From assembly GCA_964016885.1 (NCBI GenBank), contig OZ024742.1, positions 95,108,001 to 95,172,000 of the forward strand: a DNA stretch of 64,000 nt. Direction: 5' to 3'. The DNA comes from Eledone cirrhosa. Its lineage: Eukaryota. The position numbers were made by a program, and so were the translations under genes. The notes below the pieces were generated by a model. That model was not told the DNA's origin. It saw nothing but the letters and a program-made list of their open reading frames with translations, and searched no databases. This document shows positions 129 to 60,326 of this stretch, piece after piece. Every line of letters begins with the position of its first letter. Within the stretch, counting starts at the first letter, position 1.

Positions 129-3100
129 CATCATCATCATCATCATCATCATCGTTTAACGTCCATGTTCCATGCTTGCATGGGTTTGGACAGGAGTTTT
201 CCCACTTGAGGCAAGAGTTATTGTCTTGCTCGCATAGGACTGTCTGGCGGGTTTTCTACAGCTGGATGCCCTTCCTAACACCAACCAAATTTACAGTGTG
301 GGACTGGGAGGTTTTTACCGTGTTGCCTACACGCCCACATTACAGCGTGGACTGTGTGTTTTTTTTGTCATGACACCTACACGATCTCATTTGTTTCGGC
401 CTGGATGTTGTGGCACCAAATTAACTTTACATTGAAGGGAGCGGTGTGGATGAGGTGGGGGTGGTGGGACGGGGGTGTATTTTATTAGAGATGCCTACTG
501 ACTGTAGTAGGTTTTACTTTGTATTCAGGTAAGGCGGGTCTTCTCTATTACTGAGTACCGCCAAAGATCTCGGTCCAGTGACATTGTCTTGGAGAGGTGT
601 AAGTGTGTGAGGTCGGAATTTATCAGGTCGTCCCAGGTTTTTCTGGGTCTGCCTACTCCGTGGCTACCGTCTATCTTTATTGCCCTGCACTTTTTTTATA
701 CAGCTGTCGTCTTTCATGCGCATCACGTGACCATACCAATGTAGCCTTCTCTCGAGTAAACAACATCTGATCCCTCTTATTTCTAATTTTTCCCTTAGTT
801 CGTTTATGCTTTGCCGTTCGCGTATATTACTATTACACATCCAGCAGAGCATGCAAACTTCGTTCCTCTCTAGTCGGCATATATCCTCTGCACACAATGC
901 CCAGGTATCACTGCCATGCAACATTGCTGTTCGTATGCAGGCATCATACAGCCTGCCTTTCATTTTTAGGGAGAACCCTTTAGCAGCTAATAGTGGTATA
1001 AGCTCTCTGAACTTTTTCCATCCAGTTCTGACTCTAGCTACTGTACTTTCAGAGCACCCTCCCCCACTGCTGATTTTGTCACCCAGGTAACGGAAGCTGT
1101 CCACTATTTCTATAGAACCCTCTGCGCAATTGAAAGAGCAAGTATTTTGTGGGCACTTGCTGCTACTTATTGCACCAGAGCACCGGCCACATGTAAAATC
1201 TCTGTTCTTAGTTAACTTACCTGTGATCCCACTACATCTTTTATGCACCCATACTTTGCATTTGGGTCATAAAATGGAGTTTCTACCTACGCCTTTCCTA
1301 CACACTGAGCATGGCCATTTCCCGGAAGGGACCGGTGCTTCATTTTCTTTCCTACAAACTAGAACTTTAGTCTTAGCCAGGTTAATTTTAAGGCCTTTTG
1401 ATTCTAGGCCATGCTTCCATGTTTGGAATTTCTTCTCTAGCTTGGCCATTGATTCAGCTATGAGCGTTAGATCATCTGCGTATAGGAGTTCCCATGGGCA
1501 GCCAGTCTTGAACTCCACTGTTATAGCCTGAAGGGCAATAATAAATAGTAGGGGGCTAAGAACAGAGCCCTGATGAACACCAACTTTTACGCTGAACTCT
1601 TCACTATATTCGTTGTTAATTCTAACCTTGCTGACCGTTTCTTTATACATGGCTTGTATAGCTCTCACAAGCCATTCATAAACACCTAGTTTTCTAAGAG
1701 CCCACCAGATAATGGAACGGGGGACTCTGTCGAAGGCTTTCTCCAAGTTAATAAAAGCTAAGTATAGGGGTTTACTTTTAGCTAGGTACTTCTCCTGTAG
1801 TTGTAGTACAATGAAAAGAGCGTCTGTGGTACTTTTGCCTGACACAAACCCGAACTGCATTTCATCTAGATCAGTTCTCTCTCTGATTAGTTGCACTATT
1901 ACTTTTTCCGTGACCTTCATGACCTGGTCGATTAATTTAATGCCTCTATAGTTACTCCTATCTAGGGCATCTCCTTTACCCTTGTAACAGTTAATGATGA
2001 TGCTGCTACGCCAGTCCTTCAGAAGAACCCCATTCTGTATGACTTGGTTTACAATCCGGGTGACCATGGTGTGTTCCACCGTTCCAGAGGCTTTCAGCAT
2101 CTCAGCAACTATTTCCGAAGGCCCAGCCGCCTTACCCGTCTTCATATCTTTGATTGCCTTACTTATTATACTACCTTCAACTAACACTGCTGGTCCCTCT
2201 ATTGGGTCGATGTGGGGGAGACTGTCCTTCTCCCATTTATTCTCCTCATTTAGTAGCCTTTCATAGTGACACTTCCAAGCTACCTTCTTATCAGCGTCAG
2301 TGATGGCAAGTACGACATCATCATTTAGTACACACTTCTCCCCGACAATATCACGGTTATCCTTGACACATTGCCTAGCAATCCTGAACACCTCACGTTT
2401 TTGGTCCTCGCGTTGTAGAACATGCTTGAACTTTCTTTCCTCTGCTTCCCTTCTTGCGAAGTACACTTGTCTCCTAGCTTCCCTCCTGGCCACTTGATAG
2501 TCTTCTCTACTTCCCCCATCCCGCCATACTTTCCAAGCCTGCTTTTTGGCCTTAATCGACTCCTCCACCTTACTGTTCCACCACCATATTACTCTCCTCC
2601 TGCCTATAGGCCTGCTCCGGCCACAGACTTCGTCTGCCGCCATCAGCAGGTTTGCTTTCGAGAATTCCCACTGTTCCTCTATATTGTACGACTCTAAATG
2701 CTCTTCCTTACTGTCGAAAGCATCAAGTAATATGCTTTGAAATTTATTTCTGGCTGTGGGGTCCTTTAGCTTCCATATTTTCTCCTGAGGATAATCCCCT
2801 TCTCCTGACGAGTACGTCTCATCCTGACTATGAGGTCGCTAATTATCAGTCTATGTTGGGAGGTGCATTCTTCATGGGGGAGGGATTTAGTGTTTACAAC
2901 AGACACTCTGTCACGTCTTCTGGTAAGGATATAATCTACCTGGCTGGTATGTTCCCCTGATCTGTAGGTGATCAAGTGATTGTCTCGTTTTTTAAAGTTA
3001 GTGTTACAGATTATTAGGTTATTTGCGTCACAGAATTCCAGGATTCTGTAGCCTTCCTCATTTCTAGTACCAAACCCATAGCCTCCGTGGATTCCATCAT

Positions 3101-3512
3101 AGCCGTCACAATGTTGTCCAAAGTGACCATTTAGGTCGCCAGCAATAATTATATAGTCACTGTCGGTTATTTGGGAGGTAGTGAGCATCAGTGTCTCATA
3201 GAAACTGTCTTTTATAGCGCCAGGCAGACCGGATTGGGGCGCGTACGCAGATATTATCGTCACAGTAGTTCTATTTAGAACAAGTCTTATTTTAATTATT
3301 CTGTCGTTTACTCTATTTACGTTTATTATCTTATCTACCCATTTTTCTGCTAACATGATTCCTACCCCACCCAGCCCATTGTCATTTTCCACCCAGAAAA
3401 GCTTATAGCATCGTTTTTTACTCACAATGAATCTAGCCAGCCCGCCCCTCCACCTGGTCTCTTGGATACAGCAGACATCAACCCCCTTACGTTCAAGCAT
3501 TTCTACAACCTC
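129..3512 (-). mobile_element. RTE-clade LINE, copy A (slightly 5'-truncated; APE endonuclease + RT + PHD-like finger; frameshifts at ~2780 and ~690, stop at 1267)
   Basis: ORFs 2766-3563, 1267-2643 and 664-1248 give IQETRW, SAYAPQ, GDLNGH, QVDYIL, SQHR (APE) and NYRGIKL, LEKAFDRV, HQGSVLSPLLF, LYADD, FRYLG (RT). (GAT)n tail at the left end. 7-bp TSD tgtgaat at 122-128 and 3513-3519. Confidence 0.95.
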
Positions 3513-3550
3513 TGTGAATATATATATATGTATATATATATGTATATACT

Positions 3551-3746
3551 GTGTAGGTAACACGGTAAAAACCTCCTAGTCCATACTGTAAACGTGGTTA
3601 GTGTTAGGAAGGGAATCCAGCTGTAGAAAACCTGCCAGACAGTCCTATACAAGCGAGACGACCAATCTTGCCTCAAGTGGGACAATTCCTCTCTAAACCC
3701 ATTCTAGCATGGAAGATTGACGTTAAATGATGATGAGGATGATGAT
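3551..3746 (+). mobile_element. Short 5'-truncated 3' end of the same RTE family
   Basis: Colinear with 53730-53930 (aacacggtaaaaacctcc...ttaggaaggg..tccagctgtagaaaacc...gcatggaa...gatgatga). Confidence 0.85.
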
Positions 3747-24699: not shown

Positions 24700-27062
24700 A
24701 TCCGGCAAACCTGCCTTCACCCAAAAGTGATTTGAACGAATCACAAGAAGAAGTTTTTTTGTGACATACTTATGACCATGTCAACACTTCTGCTTGGTGT
24801 TGTTTATCGACCCCAAACTACCAGCAGGACACACAGCTTTGTGATATCCTCAGAGCTGCTGCCAGGAAAACAGCCACTTATGTATTTATTGCAGGTGACT
24901 TCAATCATCCTGAGATCGATTGGGAAACCTTTCGTTGGCCACAAAGTGAAAACGATTTCCTTGAGCTAGTGCTGGACTCAAACTGGTCACAAGTAGTCAC
25001 CTCTCCAACAAGAGGTGACAACACTTTGGACTTGATCTTCACCACTATTCCTGAAGTGGTTATCAGTTGTACTACTGAGGAACCTATAGGCGACTCTGAT
25101 CATTGCCAATCTGGCTCTTGCGTGCAGCAACAAAAACCAGAACCATCTCCAATCTGCCTGCTTTGATTGGAAGAAAGCGGATTGGAACTTGTACTGCACT
25201 GAGCTACAGCGCCCAAACTGGCATGAGTTCTATAACTCTGGAGATGTGAACACTATACTCCAGAGCATCCTGGACTCAATATGGATAGCGTGTGCAGCAT
25301 CTGTGCCACGTAAGTAGAAAAAATAACCACCCCAAAAGTGAAATTTGGGAAACTTCAGCGGTCCTACTTGCCAGGAAAGAATGTTGGAACGCTGAACGGG
25401 AATATAAACTGCATAAATCAGATGCCAACAGAAAAAAGCAGAATACATCTTCCAATCATCTCAAGCATGTAACAAAAATGGCAGTGCTTGAATTTAAACA
25501 GTGCATAGCAACCAATCCTGACAGTAAGGTGTTCTGGAAATATGTTCATTCAAACAGAGACCTCACTCTGCAGTTGGTCCTCTTCGCAATCCCCACATAA
25601 GCCAGATCGCTGACAATCCCAAAGAATGCGCAGAACTCATTGTTGAGTGCTATGCATGCATTTTTACTGTTGAAAACCAGAATGTACCATCTCCGCCATC
25701 TCTAACATCAAATTCCATAACAACTATGGAATTTACACCTGCAATGTTGCGATGTCACCTTAAGAATAAGTGCAACTATGCCTGCCCTGGTCTTGATGGT
25801 GTTACATACCTGCTTCTCAAACGTGGCGGGTACTTCCTTTTGCACCAACTTTCTTTCTTCTTTCAATACTGTCTCAACAATGGTGCTACTCTGGGGCAGT
25901 GGAAAACTACCAGTCATCCCTCTGTTCAAAAAGGGCGACTGCACGTCACCTGTCAACTATCGTCCATCAGTCTTACTAGCTGTATTGCCAAACTGATGGA
26001 ATCCTGTGTCAGAGAAACAATTTGGAAATTCTGGAGCTCTCACAGCCTCATCCGGCCCTCACAGTTTGGATTTATCCCTAACTCCAGCTGCTGTGATCAG
26101 CTTATCGAGTTCCTTGAAGACATTACCCAGATCACTGACAGTGGCTCATGGGTGGATGTTGTTTACCTTGACTTCGCTAACGCTTTTAATTCTGTGCCAC
26201 ACAAAAGACTTATGGCGAAACTCTCTGCAATGGGTGTGAGGGATGATCTTTTTAACTGGTTGAAATCCTTCATTCTCAACCGAAAAGAGGTAGTCACGGT
26301 TCTAGGACAGCATTCTTCACCATATGAGATGTCATCTGGTGTACCACAGTGATCTGTTCTTGGTCCCCTTTTGTGTGTGGCATATATTAATGACATAGAT
26401 GCCAACTTAAAGAATGTCACGGTACTGAAATATGCAGATGACATCAAGCTGTACCTTGAAATCAAAAGGACTGATCCTGAAATCTACAACTCTTTCCTAC
26501 AATCAGACCTGGAAAACAATGCAGCAATGGATCACAGACTGGCAACTGAAGCTGGCTGTGGACAAGTGTACCACCATGCATTTTGGGAGGAAAAATCCAG
26601 CGTCCACATACTCCCTCCACAACTCTGATATCAAGAAGTCCTCTTGTGAACGTGACCTGGGCATTACTGTCAGCAGAGATTTGCGTTGGACAAAGCATGT
26701 CTCTAAATTGTTAAGAAGGCCGAGGCTGTCTTGGCATCACTCAGCAAGACCTTTGTTAGCCGCTCTCCAGCCATCTATTTAAAGCTGTATACAGCTATGG
26801 TACGACCACACTTGGAATTCGCATCATCAGTCTGGAACCCCTATCTTGATCAGAACATTGACCTCCTGGAAACTGTTCAGAGACGTGCAACCAAGCACAT
26901 ACCCTCCATCAGACACCTACTATCCATCAGACACCTACCATACTCTGAACCCCTTGCTTCCCTGGGCATGGATTCATTGAAACTCCGACGTCTGGCAATG
27001 GACTTGGTAAACACCCACAAAGTTATTAACAATCTCGCCAACAACAATCCTGAGCACCTTTT
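24700..27062 (+). mobile_element. CR1-group LINE ORF2 remnant (APE + RT), truncated and disrupted
   Basis: GVVYRP, GDFNHPEIDW, PTRGDNTLDLIF, SDH, PGLDG, NYRP, YLDFANAFNSVPHKRL, GVPQ*SVLGP, YADDIKL, RPHLEFASSVWNPY across several frames. Confidence 0.9.
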
Positions 27063-28565: not shown

Positions 28566-29094
28566 TGGAAATATGTAATAAATTGAAATAAAAACCTACA
28601 GGTGCATGTGTTTGTATTGGCAGCATGACCCTCCTAAAGTATAACAATATCTATATATGTAGTGTAAAGACAATCTGAAATGAAATTTGTGGTAGTTTTC
28701 CTCCTTTCCTCTAAAATAAATATTCATAACTTTCCAGCAATATACACACTTTAAATTATAGATCACCCCATCTGCCTCCACTTTCACCGCTTCTTTTTTT
28801 TCATTTTTCATCTAAATACGTGAATTTTGTGTGTCTTAATTTCTTTCTGTAGATATTGATATATATATCTTTTGAAATTTGTTTACCTATTAACATTTTT
28901 CTAACTTTTTTTCCATGTTTCCCTTTTTGGCTGACTTTGAGAGAAATACCATCAAAACGCCTGAACATATCAATGTGATAGGTACCATTTCTTCTTCTGC
29001 ACTGACTCAAATGTGGTTTCTTTAGTTTTTTTATTTATTTATTTTACCTTCACTCTGTTTCATCTCCAGTGTCTATTTGATTATTATTATTAAA

Positions 29095-29277
29095 TGGTCG
29101 ATTGGCAGTATCGGTAGAGGGTCAGACGCCATGCTTTCCAGCATAGTTACGCCCCTTTATGATCTGAGTTCAAATCCCACCGAGGTTGACTTTGCCTTTC
29201 ATCCTTACGGGGTCGATAAAATAAAGTACCAGTAATGCACTGGGTAATTGCTGGCCTTGTGCCTAAAGTAGAAACAA
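29095..29277 (+). mobile_element. SINE-A short form
   Basis: Near-identical to 4337-4521; flanked by attattatt on both sides. Confidence 0.9.
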
Positions 29278-31298
29278 TTATTATTGTTGTTGTTGTTGTT
29301 GAATATTTTCGGAAAGACTGATACTACTTTAATGTATATAGCTTCATCCTGATCATCATTATAGTCATCACCACCACCACTATCACCTTCATATCTACTA
29401 TCATCATCACCACCAATATCATTATCATCACCATCATCATCCTCTCAACCCTTATAACCATCGTCACCACCACTTCTATCCTCATCTTCGTTATCATCAT
29501 CTACAACTCCAACATGCTTTTTAAGGACAAACACAGTCCTCAAGAATATCTAGATTAGTCTCTCCAATAGAGTGTATGTTTTCTTCAATATACTCTTCAA
29601 GGGCATCCAATATGTTATTTCCATTTCTCTGTCTTCCATCTTCACAGACACATTATCTAACAAAACCAATTTCACTTAAAAGTTTTTTTTCTTTTTTCTT
29701 ATATTCTTTGTGAATATTTTGTTACTTTTTCTACTTAACTTGTTTTTCTGTCATCTGTTGAGTTACCAAAACGACTAGTCATCTGCTACTGATATACACA
29801 GACATTAGCCTTCATGCCATCATCATCATAATCATCACCATCATCAACATTTTGTCTTTGTTTTCCATGCTGACATGGATTAGAGAGGTCATAGCAGTGA
29901 AAGACTAAACTGGTTGGAGAACCATATCTAGCTCATATGAGGGCTGGCTGACCAAGGTACTCTCATGGAATGAGGTTTATTTTTCAACGGAGTACCCAGA
30001 AAGGAACAATGCAGTTATTAATTATAAGAGTTGAAATTAGTGCATGCAAGATTTCACAGATCTTGCATCACTCCTTTAAAGTCGGCCTATACACTTTTCA
30101 GCCCACCCTTGTACATTCCATATTTGGCATGGTTTCTACAACCAGAATATACTGGGTGCATTTTATCATGGTACCAGCACTACCACATTATAGATTGTCC
30201 TGGATGTATTTTATCATGGCAACAGGACCAACAATTTACAGAGTTAAATAAATTGACACCAATACATAACTGATATTGAAAAAGAAATAGTAATTTCAGT
30301 GGATTGTGAATGCAGAATGAAAGGAAGCAAAACTCAATAGTACTAGTCAATAGTATATCCTGGTGCTCTATCTATTTTGCACACCCACAACCCAATGATG
30401 ATGATGATAATGACAATGATGACAACGCCGATGATGAAAGTTAATCAGATGGATAAAATGTTTTGCTTTTTTCCATAAATCTAAGTTATTTCGTCAATAT
30501 TCCAATATTTTAGTTTATCTTGAAAATCTTGCAAGATATTGGAAAGACATCATTTAATTTTGCAGCAATGTTTGTCCAACCATGTCAGCTACTGGAAATC
30601 ATGTCGATAGTGATGGCTATAATGATGGTCATGACGACAGACAGAATAATGATGGGGAAGATAAAATTAAGTTATGATGATGATGATGATGATAATGATG
30701 GAAATGGATGTAGTTGTTATGGCAGGGATGATGCTAATGATGATGTTGTGATGGCTGTGATGCTGGTGATGGTGGCAGTGATGGTGAAAATAGTGGTGCT
30801 AATGATGATGATTTGGTAATGATTAGTGGATGATATTTATTTCGTGTTTGAGTTGTTGACAAAGATATTTGGAGAGATATTGATGATGATGATGATGAAG
30901 ATGGTTTAGAGCTACTTACTCAAGATCTTCAAACTGATTACTGCAGAGAGGAAAGAGTGACAACTTCCTCTACCTTACAAAATTGTTCCAGTTTTTTCCT
31001 TAAAAACAGTCTCAGCCAATAGTTAAGATATCCATTTTGATGAATATTTTCTTTCTCAACAACATAATAATTATTTCTAATGCAGCCACAAATTCAGAAC
31101 TTTGGGAAAGCGGAACAATTGAGCTCATTCACCCATGCACTTGGTAGGTATTTTATTTTGTTGACTCAAGAAAGATGAAATGTAAAGATCGCTTCAGCAC
31201 GATTTGGACTCAGAATCTAGCCATTTTGTTTGACCCTCTAATCATCATCATCACTGATTTTTACAATCTATCACATATTTTGATAATAGTATAATAAT

Positions 31299-31628
31299 TG
31301 TTTCTACTTTTGGCACAAGGCCAGCAAATACCCAGTGCATTACTGGTACTTTATTGTATCGACCCCGTAAGGATGAAAGGCAAAGTTAACCTCGGCGGGA
31401 TTTGAACTCAGACCGTAAAGGAATGTAACTATGCATGGCGTCCGACTCTCTACTGATACTGCCAATCCAATATTATTATTATTATTATCATTATTAGAGT
31501 GTGGTGGGCTGGTACAACTGTTAGTGTGTTGGATGAAATGCATCACAGTATTTCATTATAGTCTGCTACATATTGGAATATTGACGAAATAACTTAGATT
31601 TATGGAAAAAAGCAAAACATTTTATCCA
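31299..31628 (-). mobile_element. SINE-A insertion (31299-~31469) with ~160 bp of locally templated extra DNA at its 5' junction
   Basis: 18-bp TSD tgataatagtataataat at 31281-31298 and 31629-31646 encloses the SINE plus inverted copies of 31737-31833 and 30449-30508. Confidence 0.85.
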
Positions 31629-33204
31629 TGATAATAGTATAATAATGGCTTGGGGAAGGGGAAGGTCAATTACAATGACCCACCATGTGGGTAGTACTTT
31701 ATTTTATCATCCCCAAAAGGATGACTTGGAACCAGAATGTAGAGGACTATAATGAAATACTGTGATGCATTTCATCCAACACACTAACAGTTGTACCAGC
31801 CCACCACACTCTAATAATGATAATAATAATAATTTATTTTTCCTTTTGTAAGGTTTCTCTAGCAATAAGTTATAAGGTGAAGTGTGTTAATTTACCATCA
31901 GTCCCTGATCTCAGAGGCTCAATAAATAGCATAGGATTCTGGCAAAGCCAGCGATGGTAATAGTGATGATGATGATGATGATGATAATAATAATATAACA
32001 GTTATAATGATTTCTAAGATAGGTACAATGTACTAGGCTCCATAATAAAAAAAATAAAGTCAAGCATCACAAGATTTTAACATACATTTATTTCCCCTCT
32101 CTACTGATTCATATATTATTATTGTTATTATTATCATTTAAGAGTAATGGATTATCAGACTTAGAGCATTGGACAAAATACTTTGCAGTGTTTAGTTACG
32201 TTTTGAGTTTAAATTCTGCTGAGGTTAGCTTTTCCTTTCATCCTTCTGGCATTGATAAAAAAAGTACCAATTAAATACTGGTGTTGATAAAATTGACTTT
32301 CCCCAATATCAAAATATTATTGGCTACGTTCTTAGATTGGAAACAATTATTATTTTGTTGTACTTTGGTAGGGCCATACTGCCAATGAAAAACACATGCA
32401 CCTGTTGGTTTCACTTCAATTTATTATTATAATTTGCTAGTCAGTTAGTTTCATTAACAGCTGGTTGTTTATTTGTTGATTGACAAAGTTCTTAAGTAAC
32501 ACATTCTGTGACTATCTTTGTTGTTATTTTGTATCTTTTATTTGTTCTGTTTTATACTGTCTTAATTTCTTCTCTTTACACCTTATTTTGTCATTCTGGA
32601 TTGCTAGATAATAACCTGTCTTCTGCAGCCTTAGGTATCCACCACGTTATGTATGGTTCTTACTGTGCCAAGTTAACAGGTTTTCTTAAGAGTCTGGAAA
32701 TCCATGTCAATACCCAATATCTTCAACCAACCATCCAAAATTCAATTCACTTTCCCTATGGCTCTAAATACAATTGGGATGATAACAAATTTGCAACAAT
32801 TTTAGAATATTTGTAGTGTACATTCCAAGTCTTGATACTTTTCTATTTTCTTGCATTCTTTGTCACCCACTCTAATATCAAATGGACAATCATCATCATC
32901 ATTTCACCTTTTGACTTACATTTTCCATGCTAGCATGTGTTAGACAGGAATCAATATTGCTTAATCTACAAACTCTTTTCTCTTTACTGAGTGTAAAAAT
33001 ATCTGAGTGTGAAGACTCTCTTTGCTTATCTGTTTCAATCTTCATGCCCATAATACTTTTATATGGTTGTTTGCAATAATACATTCTGGTTTGTGGTCAT
33101 ATCTTTCCATTGCATGTTCAAATTCGAACTATTTACAAATTCATCTATTCAAGATTGTGACAACTTTTTTGTCTCTAGTTCTTATAATAATTATGAGGAA
33201 ACAT

Positions 33205-49921: not shown

Positions 49922-50599
49922 ATATGTGTATATATTTAATTGAAATTTCCAACATTATCACACACAGTATCAATTTGAATCTCCCTGAGAATCACGTTAA
50001 TGCCACAAATATCTGTTGAGCTTGCATCGTCAAAATCGACAGAGGTCCATTCTACTGGTTTATTCACCTTTATATTTTTACTATAAATCTTTCTATCAGT
50101 ATGTATTTCTATCTACCAATATATCTGCTTCTTATTCTGTTTCTTAGTCTGACACTTTTAATTCTCTATATCACTCCATCTATTGATCTCAGTGTTTTAC
50201 ACTACATCTTTTTATGTGTGATGATGGTGGTGATGAAATATTGATAGTGGTGGGGAAAGATGGAGGAGTGATGTTGGTGGGGGAATTGTAATGGTGGAGG
50301 TGTGATAATGGTGGATGGTGGAGGGGTGATTAGGGCAGAGGAGAGAGGATGTTGGAGTGATATTGGTGAAGAGATAACATTGGAGGAGTGATGAAGATGG
50401 AGGGGTGATGATGTTGGAGGAGTGATTTAAATGAAAAAAAGTGGTCGATTCTTATATTTAACTTTACAATTTAGGAAATGTAATTTCGTGTGTGTATTTG
50501 TGTGTACGTAATGATTTACGTATATGATTTCACTTTAAATTTGAATATATACACAGCCACACAGCCACACACATGTGTATTATATATATATATATATAT

Positions 50600-53542
50600 A
50601 TTCAAGAGACCAGGTGGAGGGGTGGGTCTGCTAGATTCATTGATGGTAAAAAACGATGTTATAAGCTTTTCTGGGTGGGAAACGACGATGGGCTGGGTGG
50701 AGTAGGAATCATGGTAGCAGAAAAGTGGGCAGATAAGATAATAGACGTAAATAGAGTGAACGACAGAATAATTAAAATACGACTTGTCCTCAATAGAACT
50801 ACGGTGACAGTAATATCTGCGTACGCACCCCAATCCGGACTGCCCGGTACTATAAAAGACAGATTCTATGAGACACTGATGCTAACTACCTCCCAAATAT
50901 CCGACAGTGACTATATAAATATTGCAGGCGACCTAAATGGTCACGTTGGACAACATTGTGACGGCTACGACGAAATCCATGGAGGCTATGGGTTTGGTAC
51001 TAGAAATGAGGAAGGCTCCAGAATCCTGGAATTCTGTGATGCAAATAACCTAACTATCTGTAACACTAACTTCAAAAAACGTGACAATCACCTGATCACC
51101 TATAGATCCGGGGAACACACAAGCCAGGTAGATTATATCCTTACCAGAAGACGTAACAGAGTGTCTGTTGTAAACACTAAATCCCTCCCCCATGAAGAAT
51201 GCACCTCCCAACATAGACTGATAATTAGCGACCTCATAGTCAGGACGAGACGTACTCGACAGCAGAAGAGGACTATCCCCAGGAGAAAAATATGGAAGCT
51301 AAAGGACCCCACAGCCAGAAATAAGTTTCAAAGCATATTACTTGATGCTTTCGACAGTAAGGAAGAACATTTAGAGTCGGACAATATAGAGGAACAGTGG
51401 GAATTTCTGAAAGCAAACCTGCTGTTGGCGACAGACGAAGTCTGTGGCTGGAGCAGGCCTGTAGGCAGGAGGAGAGTAACATGGTGGTGGAACAGTAAGG
51501 TGGAGGGGTCAATTAAGGCCAAAAAGCAGGCTTGGAAAGTATGGCGGGATGGGGGAAGTAGAGAAGACGATCAAGTGGCCAGGAGGGAAGCTAGGAGGCA
51601 AGTGTACTTCGCAAGAAGGGAAGCTGAGGAAAGAAATTTCAAGCATGTTCTACAACGCTATGACCAAAAACGTGAGGTGTTCAGGATTGCTAGGCAATGC
51701 GTCAAGGAAAACCGTGATATTGTCGGGGAGAAGTGTGTACTTAACGATGATGGCATACTTGCCATCACCGACGCTGATAAGAAGGTAGCTTGGAAGTGTC
51801 ACTATGAAAGGCTACTAAATGAGGAGAATAAATGGGAGAAAGACAGTCTCCCCCATATCGACCCAATAGAGGGACCAGCAGTGTTAGTCGAGGGGAGTAT
51901 AATAAGTAAGGCAATCAAGGATATGAAGACGGGTAAGGCGGCTGGGCCTTCGGAAATAGTTGCTGAGATGCTGAAGGCATCTGGCACGGTGGGACACACC
52001 ATGGTCACCCGCATAGTTAACCAAGTCGTACAGAATGGGGTTGTTCCGAAGGACTGGCATAGCAGCATCATCGTTAACTGTTATAAGGGTAAAGGAGACG
52101 CCCTAGATAGGAGTAACTATAGAGGCATTAAATTAATCGACCAGGTCATGAAGGTCACGGAAAAAGTAATAGCACAACTAATCAGAGAGAGAATTGACCT
52201 AGATGAAATGCAGTTCGGGTTTGTGTCAGGCAAAAGTACCACAGACGCTCTTTTCATAGTACGACAACTACAGGAGAAGTACCTAGCTAAAGGTAAACCC
52301 CTCTACTTAGCTTTTGTCGATTTAGAGAAAGCCTTCGACAGAGTCCCCCGCTCCATTATCTGGTGGGCTCTTAGAAAACTAGGCGTTGACGAATGGCTTC
52401 TGAGAGCTATACAAGCCATGTATAAAGAAACGGTCAGCAAGGTTAGAATTAACAACGAATATAGTGAAGAGTTTAGCGTAAAAGTTGGCGCCCATCAGGG
52501 CTCTGTTCTCAGCCCCCTACTATTTATTATTGCCCTTCAGGCTATAACAGAGGAGTTCAAGACCGGCTGCCCATGGGAACTCCTATACGCAGACGACCTG
52601 ACACTCATAGCGGAATCAATGGCCGAGCTAGAGAAGAAATTCCAAACATGGAAGCACGGCCTAGAATCAAAAGGACTTAAAATTAACCTGGCTAAGACTA
52701 AAGTTCTAGTTTGTAGGAAAGAAAATAAGGCGGCGGTCCCTTCTGGGAAATGGTCGTGCTCGGGGTGTAGGAAAGGCGTAGGTAGAAACTCCATTTTATG
52801 TCCTAAATGCAAAGTATGGGTGCATATAAGATGTAGTGGGATCACAGGTAAGCTAACTAAGAACATAGATTTTACATGTGGCCGGTGCTCTGGTGCAATA
52901 AGTAGCAGCAAGTGCCCACAAAATACTAGCTCTTTCAATTGCGCAGAGGGTTCTATAGAAATAGTGGACAGTTTCCGTTACCTGGGTGATAAAATCAGCA
53001 GTGGGGGAGGGTGCTCTGAAAGTACAGTAGCTAGAGTCAGAACTGGTTGAAAAAAGTTCAGAGAGCTTATACCACTATTAGCTGCTAAAGGGTTCTCCCT
53101 AAAAATGAAAGGCAGGTTGTACGATGCCTGCTTACGAACAGCAATGTTGCATGGCAGTGAGACCTGGGCATTGTGTGCAGAGGATATACGCAGACTAGAG
53201 AGGAACGAAGCTTGCATGCTCCGCTGGATGTGTAACAGTAATATACGTGAACGGCAAAGCATAAACGAACTAAGGACAAAATTAGTAATAAGAGGGATCA
53301 GATGTTGTTTACTCGAGAGAAGGCTACGCTGCTATGGACACGTGATGCGCATGAAAGTCGATAGCTGTATAACAAAGTGCAGGGCAATAAAGATAGACGG
53401 TAGCCACGGAATAGGCAGACCTAGAAAAACCTGGGACGAGCTGATAAACTCCGACCTCACACACTTACACCTCTCCAAGACAATGTCACTGGACCGAGAC
53501 CTTTGGCGGTACTCAGTAACAGAGAAGACCCGCCTTACCTAA
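50600..53542 (+). pseudogene. RTE ORF (APE-RT-PHD finger) with a single premature stop (TGG>TGA at 53048-53050)
   Basis: ORFs 50573-53050 and 53105-53542 are in the same frame; YADD intact; N-terminal endonuclease residues are missing. Confidence 0.9.
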
Positions 53543-53930
53543 ATACATAGTAAAACCTACTACAGCCAGTAGGCATCTCTAACAAAATACCCCCTCCCCC
53601 CCACACCCACACCATCCACACCACCCCGTTCTATGTAAAGTTATGTTGGTGTCACACCATCCAGGTCGAAACAAATGAGATCGTGTAGGTGTCACGACAA
53701 AAAAACACAGTCCACGCTGTAATGTGGCCGTGTAGGCAACACGGTAAAAACCTCCCAGACCCACACTGTAAATGTGGTTGGTGTTAGGAAGGGCATCCAA
53801 CTGTTGAAAACCTCCCAGACAGTCCTATGCGAGCAAGACAATCACTCTTGCCTCGAGTGGGACTACCCCCGTCCAAACCCATGCAAGCATGGAACACGGA
53901 CGTTAAACGTTGATGATGATGATGATGATG
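50600..53930 (+). mobile_element. RTE-clade LINE, copy B (young, slightly 5'-truncated)
   Basis: Inverted homolog of 129-3470; (GAT)n tail at 53911-53930. Confidence 0.95.
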
Positions 53931-54329
53931 AGTGTTCTACCTAGTCAGGGCAAGATTTATAACCACCTTAAAATCCTTTCATGTTCATATTTCTAATGAA
54001 AGACACTCTATTTCAATTAATTAATGAAGAAGATTAACGATGGATTTACTAAAGCTATCAACTGTTTCAGTATACAAAGATAATATCTTAGTATGTGGTT
54101 CTTATATTATATTATGTTGCAAGATTTTATTTAAATAAGAGCCCTTTCGAATGTCTGGTTATGTATAATAGAAAGAAAGTCAGTTGTGGGTGGATTGGCA
54201 TTAAAAGTGTTAAATCGGTTGGGGTCAACTTTATTGATTATAGAAGGAAGGATGTGAAACAAAAGATATGTTCCAACAATGAATTAATATCAATTCTATG
54301 AAATAATGCACTTTCCTTTAGAAATTGAT

Positions 54330-54503
54330 TACCTCCTACCAAAGCTAGACATCTTGTGCCAAAAGTAGAAACAATTATTGATCTGAGTTCAAATCCCGCC
54401 GAGGTTAACTTTGCCTTTCATCCTTACGGGGTCGATAAAATAAAGTACCAGTAATGACTGGGGTAATTGCTGGCCTTGTGCAAAAAGTAGAAACCATTAT
54501 TAT
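54330..54503 (+). mobile_element. SINE-A 3' fragment followed by a 5'-truncated SINE-A
   Basis: Two ttgtgc.aaaagtagaaac ends at ~54355 and ~54477. Confidence 0.85.
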
Positions 54504-54778
54504 TTACTGAATAATAATAATAATGATAATAATAATAATGCTTTCTTTATTAACCACAAGGGTTTACATAAAGTAGACATTAAGGACAGTACAGGACGGT
54601 ACAAATTGGCATTTATGCGTGTAAAAGCAAGAAACAGAGGATGTAATAATAGAACAATGAAAATATTCCCCAATAGGGGGGAGACTTCTGAGGGACATTC
54701 GTGGAGAAAGCCCATTAAAAAGCCACAGTGAATCTGACCACCAGGGCAAATGCCCTCTCCCAGTTTTCCACCTTTAAT

Positions 54779-57700
54779 TTACAGACACATACTCAGAGTA
54801 GGCCCACTCACTCGGGCCATTCTTGCCTCTCTCACCCATCTTTCAACAAAATGCTGGGAAGAGAGCACTTCCCTTTCTACCCTGATTTTCCTTTTTAAAT
54901 GAAATTTGAAAAAGTTAATCAGGGCATCACCGAAGAGGAAAGTGCTCGTCTTCAACACTTTCAAACATGTCCACCATACTATCTCTTTCGCCATGGCCAC
55001 CAGACAGATAAAAACTGCTTGCCCTTCCTGGCTAAAGGAAGTGGGCGGGGAAATCCTCACGATGGACTCAGCTGATAGCTAGATCCGTCCTACAAGCGAC
55101 AGCAGGTGTTCGACATAAACCCACAAGTCAGCAATGCTCGGACACTGGACGAGTGCGTGCAGAACGGTTTCGTCGCCCTGCACGCATCTCTGACATGCCC
55201 GGCTGACGGCACCTCCATGCCTGTAGAGTTTATCCCGAACTGGCAAAGCTCCTCGGTAGCACTGCCGGCCAGGGATTTCTGGAAGTTGTCCATAGGCCCC
55301 GGCACGAAAATTCTTCCGAAGAGATTGGCTAGTTGATTTTCGTCAACGCCTAGAGTTTCCCCAAGTACGTCGTCGCTCTTCCCCTTCACTAAACCTCTAT
55401 AGAACGCCAAGGTGGAGTTTCCACCGTTCACATTGCCCGATTGGTCGGGGGCTGTGAGCGCCTGAAGACATTCCAGTCTCCAAAAGCTCCCTCTCGGTCT
55501 TCGCTTGACCCAGGACTGCAGCTCCGTCAAGGAGACGAGCTGGGGAAAGAGGCGTCTAGCAAACGGCGACCACACATGATCACCGTCGAGGAAGAGGTGG
55601 AGATGTCGTAGACTGAGCGCGTGTCTGCGCATCATCAGCCACGGCATTCCCAGCCCTCCACGTAGCGGGTGTTGACAGCAGATGGACCACCTGACCATCG
55701 GAGTGCGTCCCTTCCACAAAAAGCGAAAGAGCAAACGCTCCAGCGCAGTCAGGCGGGGCTTAGGACAAGGTACGACGGTCAGGCGGTAGTAGATGACGGA
55801 CGCGATATACGCGTTAGCCACATCCGCTCGACCTTTCAGGGATAGCTTCTTCTCCGCCCATTTCTGGGTGAGAGAAGCCACCCTGATCGTCACCTCGTCC
55901 CAGTTTTGTCCGTCTGGAGATCCGGACCAAACCAGATCCCGAGCAATTTAACCGGTCCGTCCGTCCAGCGCCCGACGACGCTGTTGGACGGCATGGACCT
56001 GCCTCTCCAGGTGCCGAGCTGCAGGCCCACTGTCTTTTCCTGGTTGATCATTGCTCCTGTCACCGTTTCGTACTCTCTTAGTGTAGTGCCGATCGCCTCG
56101 ATGTGTTTGGCGTTCGACACCACTACGGTGACATCGCCCGCATATGCTGACACGGATCTTCCGCATCCTAGTTCGCGCAGGACCCACCTCAACGTTTCCA
56201 GTTTGTGCAGTAATGGCTCGAGAGTCAATACGTACAAGAGGGATGAGAGGGGACATCCTTGGCGGACCGAGCGCATGATGTTGAACGGTTCCGAAAGGTG
56301 ACCGTTCACTCTCACCACAGAGAAGATGTCGCTGTGCATGGCAGCGATCCAGCCTCTGAAGACGGGCCCAAAGCCAGCCGCCCTCAGGACTGCCGCTAGG
56401 TAACGATGGTCGACCCTATCGAAAGCTTTCGATTGATCTAAATTGATCAAGGACCCACCCGTGCCAGGTTCCCTAGCTACCCTCTCTACGATGTATCGCA
56501 TGAGGTGGAGGTTGTCGTGGATGGATCTGTCGGGAATGGCGCATGTCTGCGCCTCTCCCACCAGACCATCAACGACAAGCGCCAACCTCTTTGCTAGCAC
56601 CTTGGCCAAAATCTTGAACTCTGTGTTTAGCAGAGTTATGGGCCTAAAATTATCTATGTTATCCCCCTTGTTCGGATCCTTTCTCAGCAGCGCCACAGTT
56701 CCTCGACTCACAGAGCTGGGAATTCTCCCGTTCTGTTGCCAGTTGCAGTAGACGTCCGCCAAGAGGCCTCCGAACAAGTCTGGCATCTGTACGTAAAGTT
56801 CAGAGGGCAGACCATCCAAACCAGGCGGTTTACCCCTTGTGCAGCCAGTCATTGCCTCCCGTACTTCAGCGGCTGTTATTGGCTTTTCGCAACACTCCGC
56901 CTCAGTGGCCGAGAGCCGCGGCAGTCCGTCGAGGTAGACACTAAAGTCCATCATTCGACCCAGCCCACCGCTGTCTCCGAACAGCTGAGTGAAGTGTCGC
57001 TGAAAAGCTTCACACATTTTTCCGGGATCAAGTAGCATGCGCCCGTCGTGGTCCACCAAAGACCGGATCGTGGTTATGTTGCCACGACGCGCTTCCGCCC
57101 CTCGGGCCCATTGAACGGCTTTCGTTCCCTCGTGTCTGAGAGCACGGACCCTAGCTCTGACAACGCAGCCTTCGTGCTTTGCATTGAAGAATTGGTCAAG
57201 GGCCAATTTCGCCACAAGCACGTCGGTCGCGATGCCTTTGCTAAGCGCCTCATCTAATTTTCTAACTAGTTCTCCCTCTGCTCTATTTTTCTCTATTGCT
57301 AAAGCCTTACTAAACCTAATGGATTCTATTCTAATCGCTCTTTTCAGAGCAAACCACCACTTGTTGTTGACGATGGCCCCCGTCAACGCCCGCTTAACTA
57401 GTTCGCTAATCCGGTCTTGTAGGCCTTGCGCGCTTGTAAGGACGCGTTTAGCTTCCAGTAGCCGGGTCCTCGTCTATGAATCCTATCTAAGTCAAGCACA
57501 CAGATCACGAATTTGTAGTCCGTGTAGCTGACTATCTTGAATTGTGGACAGCCTATGCTAGACCTATCTATTTCCCTACAAAATACTCTATCTAGATATG
57601 ATCTGGATGAGCCTATGCGATTTGTCCAAGTCCACATTGGCACATTCGGGAAATCCAATCGGTACCTGTCAGACAGTTCAAAACGCCTGAGCAGGTTGGC

Positions 57701-57913
57701 AAGGCTCTTGCACCCTCCTCCCCTATCCACTAATCCCACACAGTCCCAGCGTGCATCTAAGATCCCGTTCCAGTCGCCCACTAAAGAGCGGGACGTTCCA
57801 AGAAAGGTCTCCAGACGCCGGAAGAATTCAGGCCGCCCTGTTCCTGTCGGGGCATAGACGGCCACTAGCCTGAAAGCTTGTCCGTCTCCGCTGGTCACGT
57901 CCAGCACCACCAA
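54779..57913 (-). pseudogene. Tx1 ORF2 (APE-RT-C-terminal zinc-binding region), frameshifted
   Basis: RLVAVYAP, GDWN, SRSYLDR, GPGYWKLN, PGLDGLP, NFRPITLLN, LDQSKAFDRVDH, RQGCPLS, YAGD (mutated YADD), LSLKGR, GGLGMP; the N-terminal part of the endonuclease is missing. Confidence 0.9.
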
Positions 57914-57940
57914 GTTACCTTTTTTGTGGGTTTGTTTCTG

Positions 57941-59441
57941 TTACGCTTTTTGGTGACTTTTGTGGTGTTGGTGATTGTGGTGTTGGGGTTCATGATGGTG
58001 ATGGTGTTGGTGTTTGTGGTGATGTGGTTGGTGATGCTGGTGTGGATGCTGGCATATCTGTCCTAACTTTTTTGTTTGATAATTTATTTGTTTCCCCCTG
58101 TATTTTGTTTTTGGAGGGGGAAGGAAGAGAAATTTTTCTTTTTGGGGTTCTTTTTTTCTTTTTTGGTTTCTTTTTTTCTTTTTTCCTGATACCGTTTCCC
58201 ACTCCTCGTCGTCACAATTTGTCTCCAGTTGCGATAAGCCGGGGAGTGGAAAATCCTCCACAGGCGTTGGTTTTGGTTGTGGCGTGGTGGATGGTGTAGG
58301 CGCTGGTGCTAGTTCTGGCGCGTTGGGTGGTGGTGGTGTTGGTTTTGCTACTGTTGCTGTGGTTGTTGCTGTTACAGTTGCTTCTGTTGTTGCTGCTACA
58401 GTTGTTGCTGCCATTTCTGCTGCTGGTGGTGTTTATGGTTGAGTCACTGGTGTGGGTAGGAGAGGTGGCCTCAACCTTTTAACCTGATGGCAGAAAGCCC
58501 TTAGGTGGGTTCCTTCACCACAAACGACACACCTTGGCTTTCTGCCCTCGACGTTTACGGTGAGGTGGCTGCCGTCAGTGAGGTATATTACCTCTGGGAT
58601 CTCCTCAATGCTTTTATGGTCCGCTTGGATCAGGAGCTCCATCCCAGATCCGGACCAGTTCTCCTGCTTTTCTTTTGCTATTTTAATTATCTTGGTGTTG
58701 GCCTCGCTGCCGGCGAGGACGGCAGCCATTAGCCAGGGAATTTCGATGGGCGGTGGAACGTGGAACTCCCTGATCTTCACAAGTCTCTGGCCACAATAGC
58801 TTGGGACGAATGTGAATTCGTCACTTCGTAATGGGGCCATGGAGTGTTCTCTGGCCTCCTGTGGTGTTTCAAAGAACACGTCCACGGTTCCATATTTCTG
58901 CCCACGTCTGATGTGGGTTCTTTTTGCCCACACATGTCCCAAAGCTTTTTGGATTTGGGACTCGGATGTCCGTTCCACTCAGCGCGATTTTATGTTAATT
59001 GTCCGATAAGACACGGTGCATAGGCGACGATGCTCCATTTTATTAGGTGTGTGTGGGTGGGTGGGTGGGTGGGGTGGGGGGGCTGACCCTGTACCCATCT
59101 TTCTTTACCATTCCTTTGGCTTCTTCTAATTCCTCCTGAGTTACCTGGATCGCTTCGCACGTTTTTGCTACTCTGGCAAAACTCAGGGTAGTTTTCTTAA
59201 TTTCATTGTTGCTGTTGTTGTTATCGTTATTTTTGTTATTGTTAATTTTAGTTTCAGTTGTGGTGGTGGTGGCGTCAGTGGTGTTCGGTGTGGAAGAGTT
59301 CATTTTGGTTGAATTAATTTCGATATCACGAGTTAATTTATTGTTTTCTTTTGTTTCTGTTGTCGCTGTGGTGGTGGTGGTGGCGGCTTTAACACCTTCA
59401 GTCATTGGTAATGGCGGGAAATGAACGTCTGCCTGAGACAA
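57941..59441 (-). pseudogene. Tx1 ORF1 with CCHC zinc knuckle and low-complexity segments
   Basis: VNVEGRKPRCVVCGEGTHLRAFC (CX2CX4HX4C), SFARVAK, WETVSGKKKK; broken into three ORFs. Confidence 0.8.
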
Positions 59442-59795
59442 ATTTAAAATTGCTACTGCTTACATTTCCAGTGTTGGCAAACGTAGCAATATTTACAATG
59501 GTGGTGTCGGTGTGAGGTGTTAGATTGTGAGGAAGGAGTGGCTCTGAGTCATCCCCGAATTTTCAAAGAAAAATTTTTGTTTGATAATTATAAAAAGTTT
59601 AAATGTTGGGCTCAAGGCCCCAATAATTTTGAGTGTCCTTTTCAGAAATCAATGTATGTGCACTTATATACAGTTAACAATAAAAAATTTCCATAAATGG
59701 CAATTTTAAACAACTGAAAATAACAAACCTTTGCGGAGCTCACGATGATACGATTTACTACGTAGGTCGCCAATAATAATAATAATAATAATAAT

Positions 59796-60001
59796 TGTTT
59801 CTACTTTAAGCATAAGACCAGCAATCTGAAGGGGAGGGGAAATCAATTAAATCGACCCCAGTGCATTACTGGTGCTTTATTTTATCAACCCCATAAAGAT
59901 GAAAGGCAAAGCAAACCTCAGCAGGATTTGAACACAGGATGTAATGGGTCATAGCTCTATGCTTCAAAACATGGTGTCTGACACTTCACCGACACTGCCA
60001 A
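59796..60001 (-). mobile_element. SINE-A long form whose (ATT)n tail adjoins the Tx1 5' end
   Basis: Family motifs including gggggaggggaaatcaattaaatcgacccc. Confidence 0.85.
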
Positions 60002-60326
60002 TAATAACAATATGTGTTGATCTTGCTTTAGCCTGGCGATGCAGGTTATTTAGAGACAGTGTTTCAATAAAAGCACCAATGAAGAGAGTAAAGGCTCCAC
60101 AAAAACTCTCATGGAATCATGAATGAAATAGTTAATGGCGTGAAGAAAGAATCCCAATCAATATGAGAAGGAGGATGAAAATTGAAACTTCTAGAAGACA
60201 TAACATAAACTAGGAATCTTATCCAAGCTGTTGCACTGTTTGTAGAGGAGCAAATGCAACTGAAAAACACTAAGCAGAGTAAGGTAAAAGAACCACAGTG
60301 GAAAAAAGTATCAAAAATAACATAAT

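What the first reader, a model, noticed from the sequence alone, without database searches (positions are those of the whole stretch)
54510..54565. Tx1/L1-clade LINE and SINE-A share a spaced 3'-terminal motif and the same ATTAT target: candidate stringent LINE-SINE pair
Seen: in element sense the Tx1 ends CCTTGTG-gttaataa-AGAAA-gc-(ATT)n and SINE-A ends CCTTGTG-cctaaagt-AGAAA-ca-(ATT)n. The motifs, spacing (8 nt and 2 nt) and non-polyA tail are the same. The SINE-A TSDs I can read (11-18 bp; 4321, 31281, 45108, 48819, 60309, 63306) all carry ATTAT/ATAAT at the tail junction, and the Tx1 sits in (AAT)n in the same orientation as the SINE whose tail adjoins it. Established: SINEs borrow a partner LINE's 3' end, and Tx1-clade elements are often sequence-specific (some for microsatellites), whereas mammalian L1 recognises polyA. 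Inference: this Tx1 lineage mobilises the most abundant SINE in the window through a short recognition motif and an ATT-specific endonuclease.
Basis: partly seen in the sequence, partly recalled or inferred. Interest (0 to 1): 0.75.

Follow-up and report, generated by a model that had tools for sequence, protein, structure and literature searches.

The report
SINE borrows Tx1 LINE's tail hairpin
In this genome (likely an octopod), a very abundant short jumping element ends in the same 22-base signal, predicted to fold into a small RNA hairpin, and leaves the same ATTAT insertion footprint as a group of Tx1-type long jumping elements, so these likely copy it: a known kind of partnership that my searches did not find described with a shared tail for animal Tx1 elements.

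Summary
Observation confirmed; interpretation largely supported, with corrections. The Tx1 end is family-wide (26 of 29 other copies exact; 9,934 exact ends). The SINE has 151,807 exact ends. The last 22 nt of the SINE match Tx1 families at 13-18/22, but CR1, RTE, Dong and Penelope at 6-10/22. CCTTGTG is the closing pair and loop of a predicted 3-4 bp hairpin; 3 of 4 pairs are compensated. SINE and short-tailed Tx1 copies both have 9-22 bp TSDs starting at ATTAT directly after the last base; one non-repeat site is used by both. A CR1 also ends in (ATT)n but leaves no such TSD. Corrections: the motif is shared by ATCT-targeting Tx1 families, which practically never carry the SINE; the SINE 'tail' is mostly TSD; the window's Tx1 copy is broken; the hairpin is weak in full-length SINE folds. 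The scan already noted this pairing at 8 other places in this genome. New variant of the known stringent LINE-SINE pairing; trans-mobilisation is untested.

The parts
54540..59771 (-). Tx1-type non-LTR retrotransposon, 5231 bp, near full length but broken (stops, frameshifts, N-terminal part of the endonuclease missing)
   Evidence: RVT_1 hit; 89-94% aa identity to intact copy L066, match starts at ORF2 residue 155; both junctions in (ATT)n
58436..58978 (-). ORF1 fragment with a CX2CX4HX4C zinc knuckle
   Evidence: translation; no Pfam hit
54779..57940 (-). ORF2 remnant (endonuclease part, RT, C-terminal region), in several frames
   Evidence: the intact sister copy has Exo_endo_phos + RVT_1 + zf-RVT
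54552..54564 (-). predicted terminal hairpin AACC-CUUGU-GGUU; the shared CCTTGTG is its closing pair and loop
54540..54551 (-). AATAAA (Tx1 only) overlapping AGAAA, plus two terminal bases
   Evidence: sequence; conserved across Tx1 families
54510..54539 (-). (ATT)10 tract at the Tx1 3' junction (target plus tail)
59772..59795 (-). (ATT)8 tract at the Tx1 5' junction; also the 3' flank of the upstream SINE
59796..60002 (-). long-form SINE copy directly upstream of the Tx1, same orientation
54380..54495 (+). 5'-truncated short-form SINE, tail to tail with the Tx1 3' end; one stem pair mutated in this copy
29093..29276 (+). representative near-full-length short-form SINE (tRNA-like head with B box, central body, hairpin + AGAAA end), 12-bp TSD

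Best explanation
A tRNA-headed SINE and a group of ATT-targeting Tx1 LINEs end in the same 22-nt signal and have the same ATTAT-starting target duplications, so the LINE proteins likely copy the SINE, likely by binding a predicted small hairpin at the RNA 3' end. Steps. Shown: shared end, shared junction geometry, shared TSD start and length, a shared non-repeat insertion site, and conservation of the motif across divergent Tx1 families. Predicted: a 3-4 bp stem with loop CUUGU, the SINE having pair 2 flipped from C-G to G-C. Inferred: ORF2p binds hairpin + AGAAA; its endonuclease nicks the bottom strand at about ATAAT/G (top strand TC|ATTAT); the freed ATAAT end pairs with AUUAU at the RNA end and primes reverse transcription; a second nick 10-20 bp away makes the TSD. 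Inferred second key: sister Tx1 families that target (ATCT)n keep the hairpin but do not carry the SINE, probably because their nick cannot pair with AUUAU. The SINE dropped AATAAA, as expected for a Pol III transcript.
For: Tx1 end family-wide: 26 of 29 other copies exact; 9,934 exact ends, reversed-pattern control 0. SINE: 151,807 exact ends, control 0. Last 22 nt: Tx1 families 13-18/22; CR1 8, Dong 9, RTE 9, second RTE-like 6, Penelope 10; of 3,385 background sites before ATTAT none scores 15-16, and 6 score 17-18, of which 5 were inspected and are SINE 3' stubs. RNAalifold finds the hairpin unaided; 3 of 4 pairs have double changes; covariation 0.516 against 0.04-0.17 for slid partners (0.00 at +2). 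SINE TSD of 10 bp or more starting exactly after AGAAA-NN: 58 of 144; 31 of 144 after dropping pure-ATT and tandem contexts, against 15 of 1,430 shuffled pairs (p 4e-23). C at -1 in 20 of 31 against 22% background, p 4e-7; the short SINE has A there, so RNA pairing does not explain it. Short-tailed Tx1: 11 of 23 resolved copies have 9-22 bp TSDs starting at ATTAT. Young full-length Tx1: ATT runs at both ends in 20 of 20. One paralogous non-repeat site holds 1 Tx1 and 2 SINEs at the same base. CR1 with an (ATT)n tail: 0 of 15 resolved copies have a junction TSD of 9 bp or more. Ages overlap: short SINE 89-99% to consensus, median 94.5%; position-ordered Tx1 86-99% to the nearest reference copy.
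Against: The shared stretch is only 22 nt and A-rich. The stem is 3-4 bp. In folds of the full SINE consensus the hairpin has probability 0.10 (short) and 0.01 (long); it reaches about 0.9 or more only when the last 30-40 nt are folded. Covariation rests on about 13 related rows, three of them SINE, and the structure was first seen by eye. The best raw match to the short SINE is an ATCT-targeting family (18/22). 3' junctions differ in degree: only 263 Tx1 ends match a short-tail pattern against 9,934, while most SINEs have 2 or fewer ATT units. 9 of 23 resolved short-tailed Tx1 show no TSD and 3 only 7 bp. The youngest Tx1 burst (131 of 132 listed hits at 100% aa) has few equally young SINEs (2 of 81 at 99% or more); the long SINE form (median 90%) is older than most Tx1 sampled. 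Only 864 kb were sampled for rival LINEs; R2/Hero-like and further CR1 families were not followed to their ends.
Confidence: 0.62

Rival explanations
1. The ATT-targeting Tx1 does carry the SINE, but recognition is relaxed: only the AUU end pairing with the nicked target matters, and the hairpin-like tail is a relic of an old tail capture.
For: ATCT-targeting families share the hairpin yet practically never leave a SINE in their junction type: 2 of 52 candidate sites, against 151,807 ATTAT junctions. The hairpin is weak in full-length folds. No Tx1 with the SINE's own stem was found. The crocodilian SINEU/Tx1-Mar pair was argued from target, age and shared 5' heads, and SINEU ends in polyA (PMC4494074).
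Against: The motif survives across Tx1 families about 55-78% identical in ORF2. The SINE keeps loop, pairing and exact spacing with a flipped pair while the spacer varies. A purely relaxed enzyme would not need this.
Confidence: 0.25
2. Another LINE (an unsampled or extinct CR1/L2, RTE or L1-group family) is the true partner and the Tx1 likeness is secondary.
For: A young CR1 family also ends in (ATT)3-4. CR1 and RTE dominate published SINE/LINE pairs (PMC3747384). The long SINE form is older than most sampled Tx1. Sampling was 864 kb plus targeted loci.
Against: That CR1 matches 8/22 and has no ATTAT TSDs. A second CR1 ends (GTAAAAGA)n, RTE ends (GAT)n, Dong ends (TAA)n in sense. Of 140 motif-like ends in 864 kb, 115 were SINE, 7 Tx1; the other 18 were Tx1 3' UTR pieces, a SINE stub or unrelated, with no further LINE family evident. 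All 9 genome-wide hits for the SINE stem plus AATAAA(A/C/T) were SINE copies.
Confidence: 0.1
3. Chance: two AT-rich ends and a common microsatellite look alike without any functional link.
For: Short motif; (ATT)n is abundant and attracts several elements, including Dong in the opposite orientation.
Against: Match far above background; identical register; compensated stem; same TSD geometry and a shared non-repeat site.
Confidence: 0.03

Closest known systems
Stringent SINE/LINE pairs with a 3' stem-loop: UnaSINE/UnaL2, zebrafish ZfL2-1 and ZfL2-2 (PMC4176376, passages; PMC3747384, passages and Table 1)
   Same: Short shared 3' end, predicted stem-loop with conserved loop and exchangeable stem, short-repeat terminus.
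   Different: Those are L2-clade and were tested by assay. Here the LINE is L1-group/Tx1, the stem is only 3-4 bp, insertion is target-specific with 10-20 bp TSDs, and nothing is tested.
L1-clade tail-sharing pairs: maize ZmSINE2/3 with LINE1-1_ZM; Chlamydomonas SINEX-3_CR with L1-1_CR (PMC3747384, passages)
   Same: L1-group LINE with a conserved 3' hairpin showing compensatory changes, shared with a tRNA SINE.
   Different: Plants and algae, about 50-80 nt shared, polyA or polyT ends. Here an animal Tx1, 22 nt, AUU end and ATT target.
SINEU / Tx1-Mar of crocodilians (PMC4494074, passages and section 16)
   Same: A SINE assigned to a Tx1 group by shared insertion sites and overlapping age.
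   Different: SINEU has snRNA heads and a polyA tail; the passages read report no shared 3' tail. Here a tRNA-like head and a shared 3' signal.
Kibi (TC)n, Koshi (TTC)n and crocodilian (TTCC)n/(TTTC)n-targeting Tx1 families (as described in PMC4494074, passages)
   Same: Microsatellite-specific Tx1 elements with sister families on different repeats.
   Different: Targets here are (ATT)n and (ATCT)n; no partner SINE is mentioned for those families in the passages read.
Octopus SINEs OK/OR1/OR2 and the CORE and Meta superfamilies (named in PMC4824008 and PMC4758252, passages)
   Same: tRNA-derived cephalopod SINEs with a central domain; this SINE may be one of them.
   Different: PMC4824008 states that MetaSINE partners were unknown; the 1994 paper was not seen.

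Membership tests
L1-group / Tx1 clade LINE | ORF2 with N-terminal APE endonuclease, RT and C-terminal zinc region | tested here: met
   Intact sister copy, 1204 aa: Exo_endo_phos, RVT_1, zf-RVT; best solved match is human L1 ORF2p, E 2e-52, R2 much weaker
L1-group / Tx1 clade LINE | Two ORFs, ORF1 with a CCHC zinc knuckle (criterion recalled) | tested here: met
   CX2CX4HX4C in window ORF1; 714-aa upstream frame in L066
L1-group / Tx1 clade LINE | RT phylogeny inside Tx1 rather than L1 proper | tested here: inconclusive
   40% identity over the RT region to a protein named 'transposon TX1 149 kDa'; no tree with reference Tx1 elements was built
L1-group / Tx1 clade LINE | Target-sequence preference | tested here: met
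   ATT runs at both ends in 20 of 20 young full-length copies; ATTAT-starting TSDs in 11 of 23 resolved short-tailed copies
tRNA-derived SINE | Short, non-coding, high copy, TSDs, 5' truncations | tested here: met
   185 and 214 bp forms, 89 full and 55 truncated of 144; 151,807 exact ends
tRNA-derived SINE | Pol III A and B boxes, tRNA-like head | tested here: inconclusive
   B box found, strict A-box pattern not matched; no ARAGORN or Rfam hit
CORE / Meta SINE superfamily, or OK/OR1/OR2 | Central domain homologous to the published domain | not testable with these tools
Stringent LINE-SINE pair | Shared 3'-terminal sequence in register | tested here: met
   13-18 of 22 nt, ungapped, above background
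Stringent LINE-SINE pair | Conserved 3' stem-loop with compensatory changes | tested here: inconclusive
   Predicted, 3 of 4 pairs compensated; low probability in full-length SINE folds
Stringent LINE-SINE pair | Same target and TSD pattern | tested here: met
   ATT run length differs
Stringent LINE-SINE pair | Overlapping activity period | tested here: inconclusive
   Ranges overlap, but the measures differ and the youngest Tx1 burst has few matching SINEs
Stringent LINE-SINE pair | Retrotransposition depends on the 3' motif; trans-mobilisation shown | not testable with these tools
   needs a cell assay

The most novel reading that the evidence does not exclude
An animal Tx1 radiation uses stringent, hairpin-based RNA recognition with a two-key lock. 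The CUUGU hairpin licenses the RNA, and pairing of the RNA end with the family's own nicked target decides which family can copy it. A tRNA SINE has captured this minimal 22-nt key and reached over 150,000 copies on the ATT-targeting families only. It would be a tail-sharing SINE partner for the Tx1 clade, and evidence that stringent recognition persists in an animal L1-group lineage.
Probability: 0.45. Interest if true: 0.68.

Novelty: new variant of a known kind. Interest (0 to 1): 0.5.

Why it matters
Whether L1-group LINEs were ancestrally stringent or relaxed is an open question (PMC3747384, passages). Its Table 1 lists tail-sharing L1-clade pairs only for maize/sorghum and Chlamydomonas and none for Tx1. 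An animal Tx1 with a 22-nt signal, many intact young copies and a natural non-autonomous passenger makes that question directly testable. Sister families with the same hairpin but another target give a built-in control for RNA recognition against target priming. It would also name the engine of one of the commonest repeats of a cephalopod-type genome. The mechanism class itself is known, so this is a variant, not a new kind.

Tried and rejected
CR1 as partner: (ATT)n tail but unlike end and no junction TSD; second CR1 family, other tail. RTE, Dong/R4, second RTE-like and Penelope ends: no match. Search for a Tx1 with the SINE's exact stem: only SINE copies among those inspected. SINE-body/Tx1-tail chimeras as a subfamily: 3 seen, 2 exact genome-wide, so sporadic. 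High-scoring background sites as a hidden LINE end: SINE stubs inside another repeat. ARAGORN and Rfam: no hits. Sequencing runs: no RNA holder listed; laying contigs gave too little cover in the two other organisms for a cross-species test. The pattern was meant to exclude long tails but did not; it served as a total count, and one search was the corrected query. Fam6 and f1 sets from similarity searches are biased to the best hits, so their ages were not relied on. Literature searches found no paper describing this pairing; Repbase, Dfam, Ohshima and Okada 1994 and Kojima and Fujiwara 2004 were not seen, and no supplements were read.

Full report
Setting. The window lies in a 3.0-Gb assembly. 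The closest named homolog of the LINE ORF2 is from Argonauta hians at 73%, so an octopod is likely (inference). The finding is the 3' end of a minus-strand LINE at 59771-54540. This copy is broken, but a sister copy has an intact 1204-aa ORF2 with endonuclease, RT and zf-RVT domains. Its best solved relative is human L1 ORF2p, a TX1-named protein matches at 40%, and ORF1 has a CCHC knuckle. I call it Tx1-type; no tree was built.

Observation. The exact spaced motif occurs 9 times in the window against 0.009 expected. It is a family trait: 26 of 29 other copies carry it exactly and three differ by one base. Genome-wide there are 9,934 exact Tx1 ends of the ATT type and 151,807 exact SINE ends; reversed-pattern controls gave 0. 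The six cited TSDs exist. The SINE upstream of the Tx1 has the same orientation; the one at the finding's coordinates is opposite. The SINE has a short (185 bp) and a long (214 bp) form with the same end.

Is Tx1 the best match? I sampled 80 stretches of 10 kb plus the window (864 kb) and found Tx1, RTE, Dong/R4, CR1, a second RTE-like family and Penelope. Over the last 22 nt, with up to 3 nt of offset, the SINE matches six Tx1 ends at 13-18, and the others at 6-10. Among 3,385 background sites before ATTAT, with SINE and Tx1 ends filtered out, none scores 15-16; 6 score 17-18, and the 5 inspected are SINE stubs. One CR1 family also ends in (ATT)3-4, so the tail alone proves nothing. But of its 23 ends, 15 had a resolved 5' junction (two are one duplicated locus) and none had a TSD of 9 bp or more starting at the tail. 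A second CR1 ends in another repeat.

What the motif is. The genome holds several Tx1 families, about 55-78% identical in ORF2 to the young one. All keep CU(U/A/G)GU flanked by complementary arms, then AATAAA and GAAA. On 13 ends (10 Tx1, 3 SINE) RNAalifold predicts a 4-bp stem around this loop. Three of four pairs show double changes; 88.5% of cells pair; partners slid by 1-3 columns give 15-60%. The SINE has G-C where every Tx1 has C-G or U-G at pair 2. So CCTTGTG is the closing pair plus loop, and the 'spacer' starts with the 3' arm. Caution: rows are related, the stem is short, and in full-length SINE folds the hairpin has probability 0.10 and 0.01, rising to about 0.9 or more for the last 30-40 nt.

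Target and TSD. Of 144 SINE copies with usable flanks, 58 have a TSD of 10 bp or more that starts right after AGAAA-NN. After dropping pure-ATT and tandem contexts 31 remain (10-20 bp), against 15 of 1,430 shuffled pairs (p 4e-23). The target reads TC|ATTAT, with C at -1 in 20 of 31 against 22% background. Young full-length Tx1 copies sit in ATT runs on both sides in 20 of 20, which hides their TSD. I therefore took 30 of 263 short-tailed Tx1 ends. Seven ran off the locus; of 23 resolved, 11 have 9-22 bp TSDs starting at ATTAT, 3 have 7 bp and 9 none. Six of the 11 are insertions of only 23-59 nt: little more than hairpin and AATAAAGAAA. Among 227 SINE and 159 Tx1 ends, six flank clusters hold both; one is a non-repeat site inside another repeat, with 1 Tx1 and 2 SINEs at the same base. 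A difference remains: 123 of 151 SINEs have 2 or fewer ATT units, while Tx1 sets have medians of 4-12.

Tx1 families that end in (ATCT)n share the hairpin, and one gives the best raw match (18/22). Yet only 52 SINE ends genome-wide are followed by TATCTATCT, and 50 of them still read through the usual TTAT junction. The hairpin therefore does not alone decide the carrier. Pairing of the RNA end with the nicked target, or family-specific context, is a likely second key (inference).

Age. Short SINE: 81 random-sample copies, 89-99% to consensus without CpG, median 94.5%, 2 at 99% or more. Long form: 26 copies, median 90%. Thirty position-ordered Tx1 ends are 86-99% identical to the nearest of seven reference copies. 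The ranges overlap. The present Tx1 burst has few equally young SINEs, so the older ATT families probably did most of the copying (inference).

Known systems. Stem-loop recognition is shown by assay for L2 elements (PMC4176376, passages). Table 1 of PMC3747384 (read) lists no Tx1 pair, and L1-clade pairs only in maize/sorghum and Chlamydomonas. SINEU was assigned to Tx1-Mar by target, age and 5' heads and has polyA (PMC4494074, section 16 and passages). A 2026 Octopus vulgaris annotation lists active L1-Tx1 and mostly unclassified SINEs and has no occurrence of 'partner' (PMC13282606, passages). PMC4824008 (section 9, passages), PMC4758252, PMC5786205 and PMC3531059 (passages) did not show this pairing. 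Six searches found no description. Repbase, Dfam, the 1994 octopus SINE paper and all supplements were not seen and may bear on novelty.

Earlier notes of this scan. After I had formed my reading, one search showed eight notes on other DNA of this genome with the same pairing and hairpin. They are not independent support, and they make this a repeat within the scan. What I tested here beyond their summaries as shown: the CR1 control, TSDs of short-tailed Tx1, the shared non-repeat site and the ATCT-family test.

Verdict. Real feature. Tx1 group as carrier about 0.87; hairpin-dependent recognition on top of that about 0.62 overall. New variant of a known kind; interest 0.5.

Noticed in passing
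window 50528-53931 (+) and 131-3575 (-): Two copies of an RTE-type LINE with a PHD-finger hit after the RT domain, ending in (GAT)n; a similar GAT-tailed end occurs 5 times in the window and 39 times in the 800 kb sample, suggesting a second, RTE-dependent short family.
   Followed up: partly
window 25528-26349 (+); loci L142-L165: Young CR1-like family (mostly 97-99% between copies) ending in a 5-bp hairpin and (ATT)3-4, without junction TSDs; a 3' stub lies near window 45335 (-).
   Followed up: yes
L040:9000-9200; flank cluster: Tx1 and SINE often sit tail to tail in the (TAA)n tail of Dong/R4 elements: 20 Tx1 and 3 SINE ends in one cluster.
   Followed up: partly
G000:C4:357.94-358.02 Mb, C11:49.98-50.03 Mb and others: Head-to-tail arrays of young Tx1 with about 6.06 kb period; Tx1 3' ends followed by a Tx1 5' end in 18 of 159 cases.
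   Followed up: partly
L285, L288, L291, L294, L299, L309 (about 1440-1530): Tx1 micro-insertions of 23-59 nt with 14-21 bp TSDs.
   Followed up: partly
L071, L079, L088 (about 1400-1530): SINE bodies ending in a Tx1 tail, joined within the shared CCTTGTG; rare (2 exact genome-wide); template switch or a micro-insertion annealed at the shared motif.
   Followed up: partly
L046:3400-3800; L066:1-700; L042: Tx1 families that target (ATCT)n; L046 shows three different 3' ends stacked head to tail.
   Followed up: partly
window 59771 versus L066:3929: The ATT-type Tx1 has at least two unrelated 5' ends (starting GGCGACC and GAATGCC) on a similar body, suggesting 5' UTR exchange.
   Followed up: no
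window 31283-31640 (-): A 17-bp direct repeat encloses a SINE plus about 150 extra upstream bases that look like an inverted older SINE head.
   Followed up: no
L120:9580-9630 and L125: A 15-20 nt SINE 3' stub fixed inside another multicopy repeat.
   Followed up: partly
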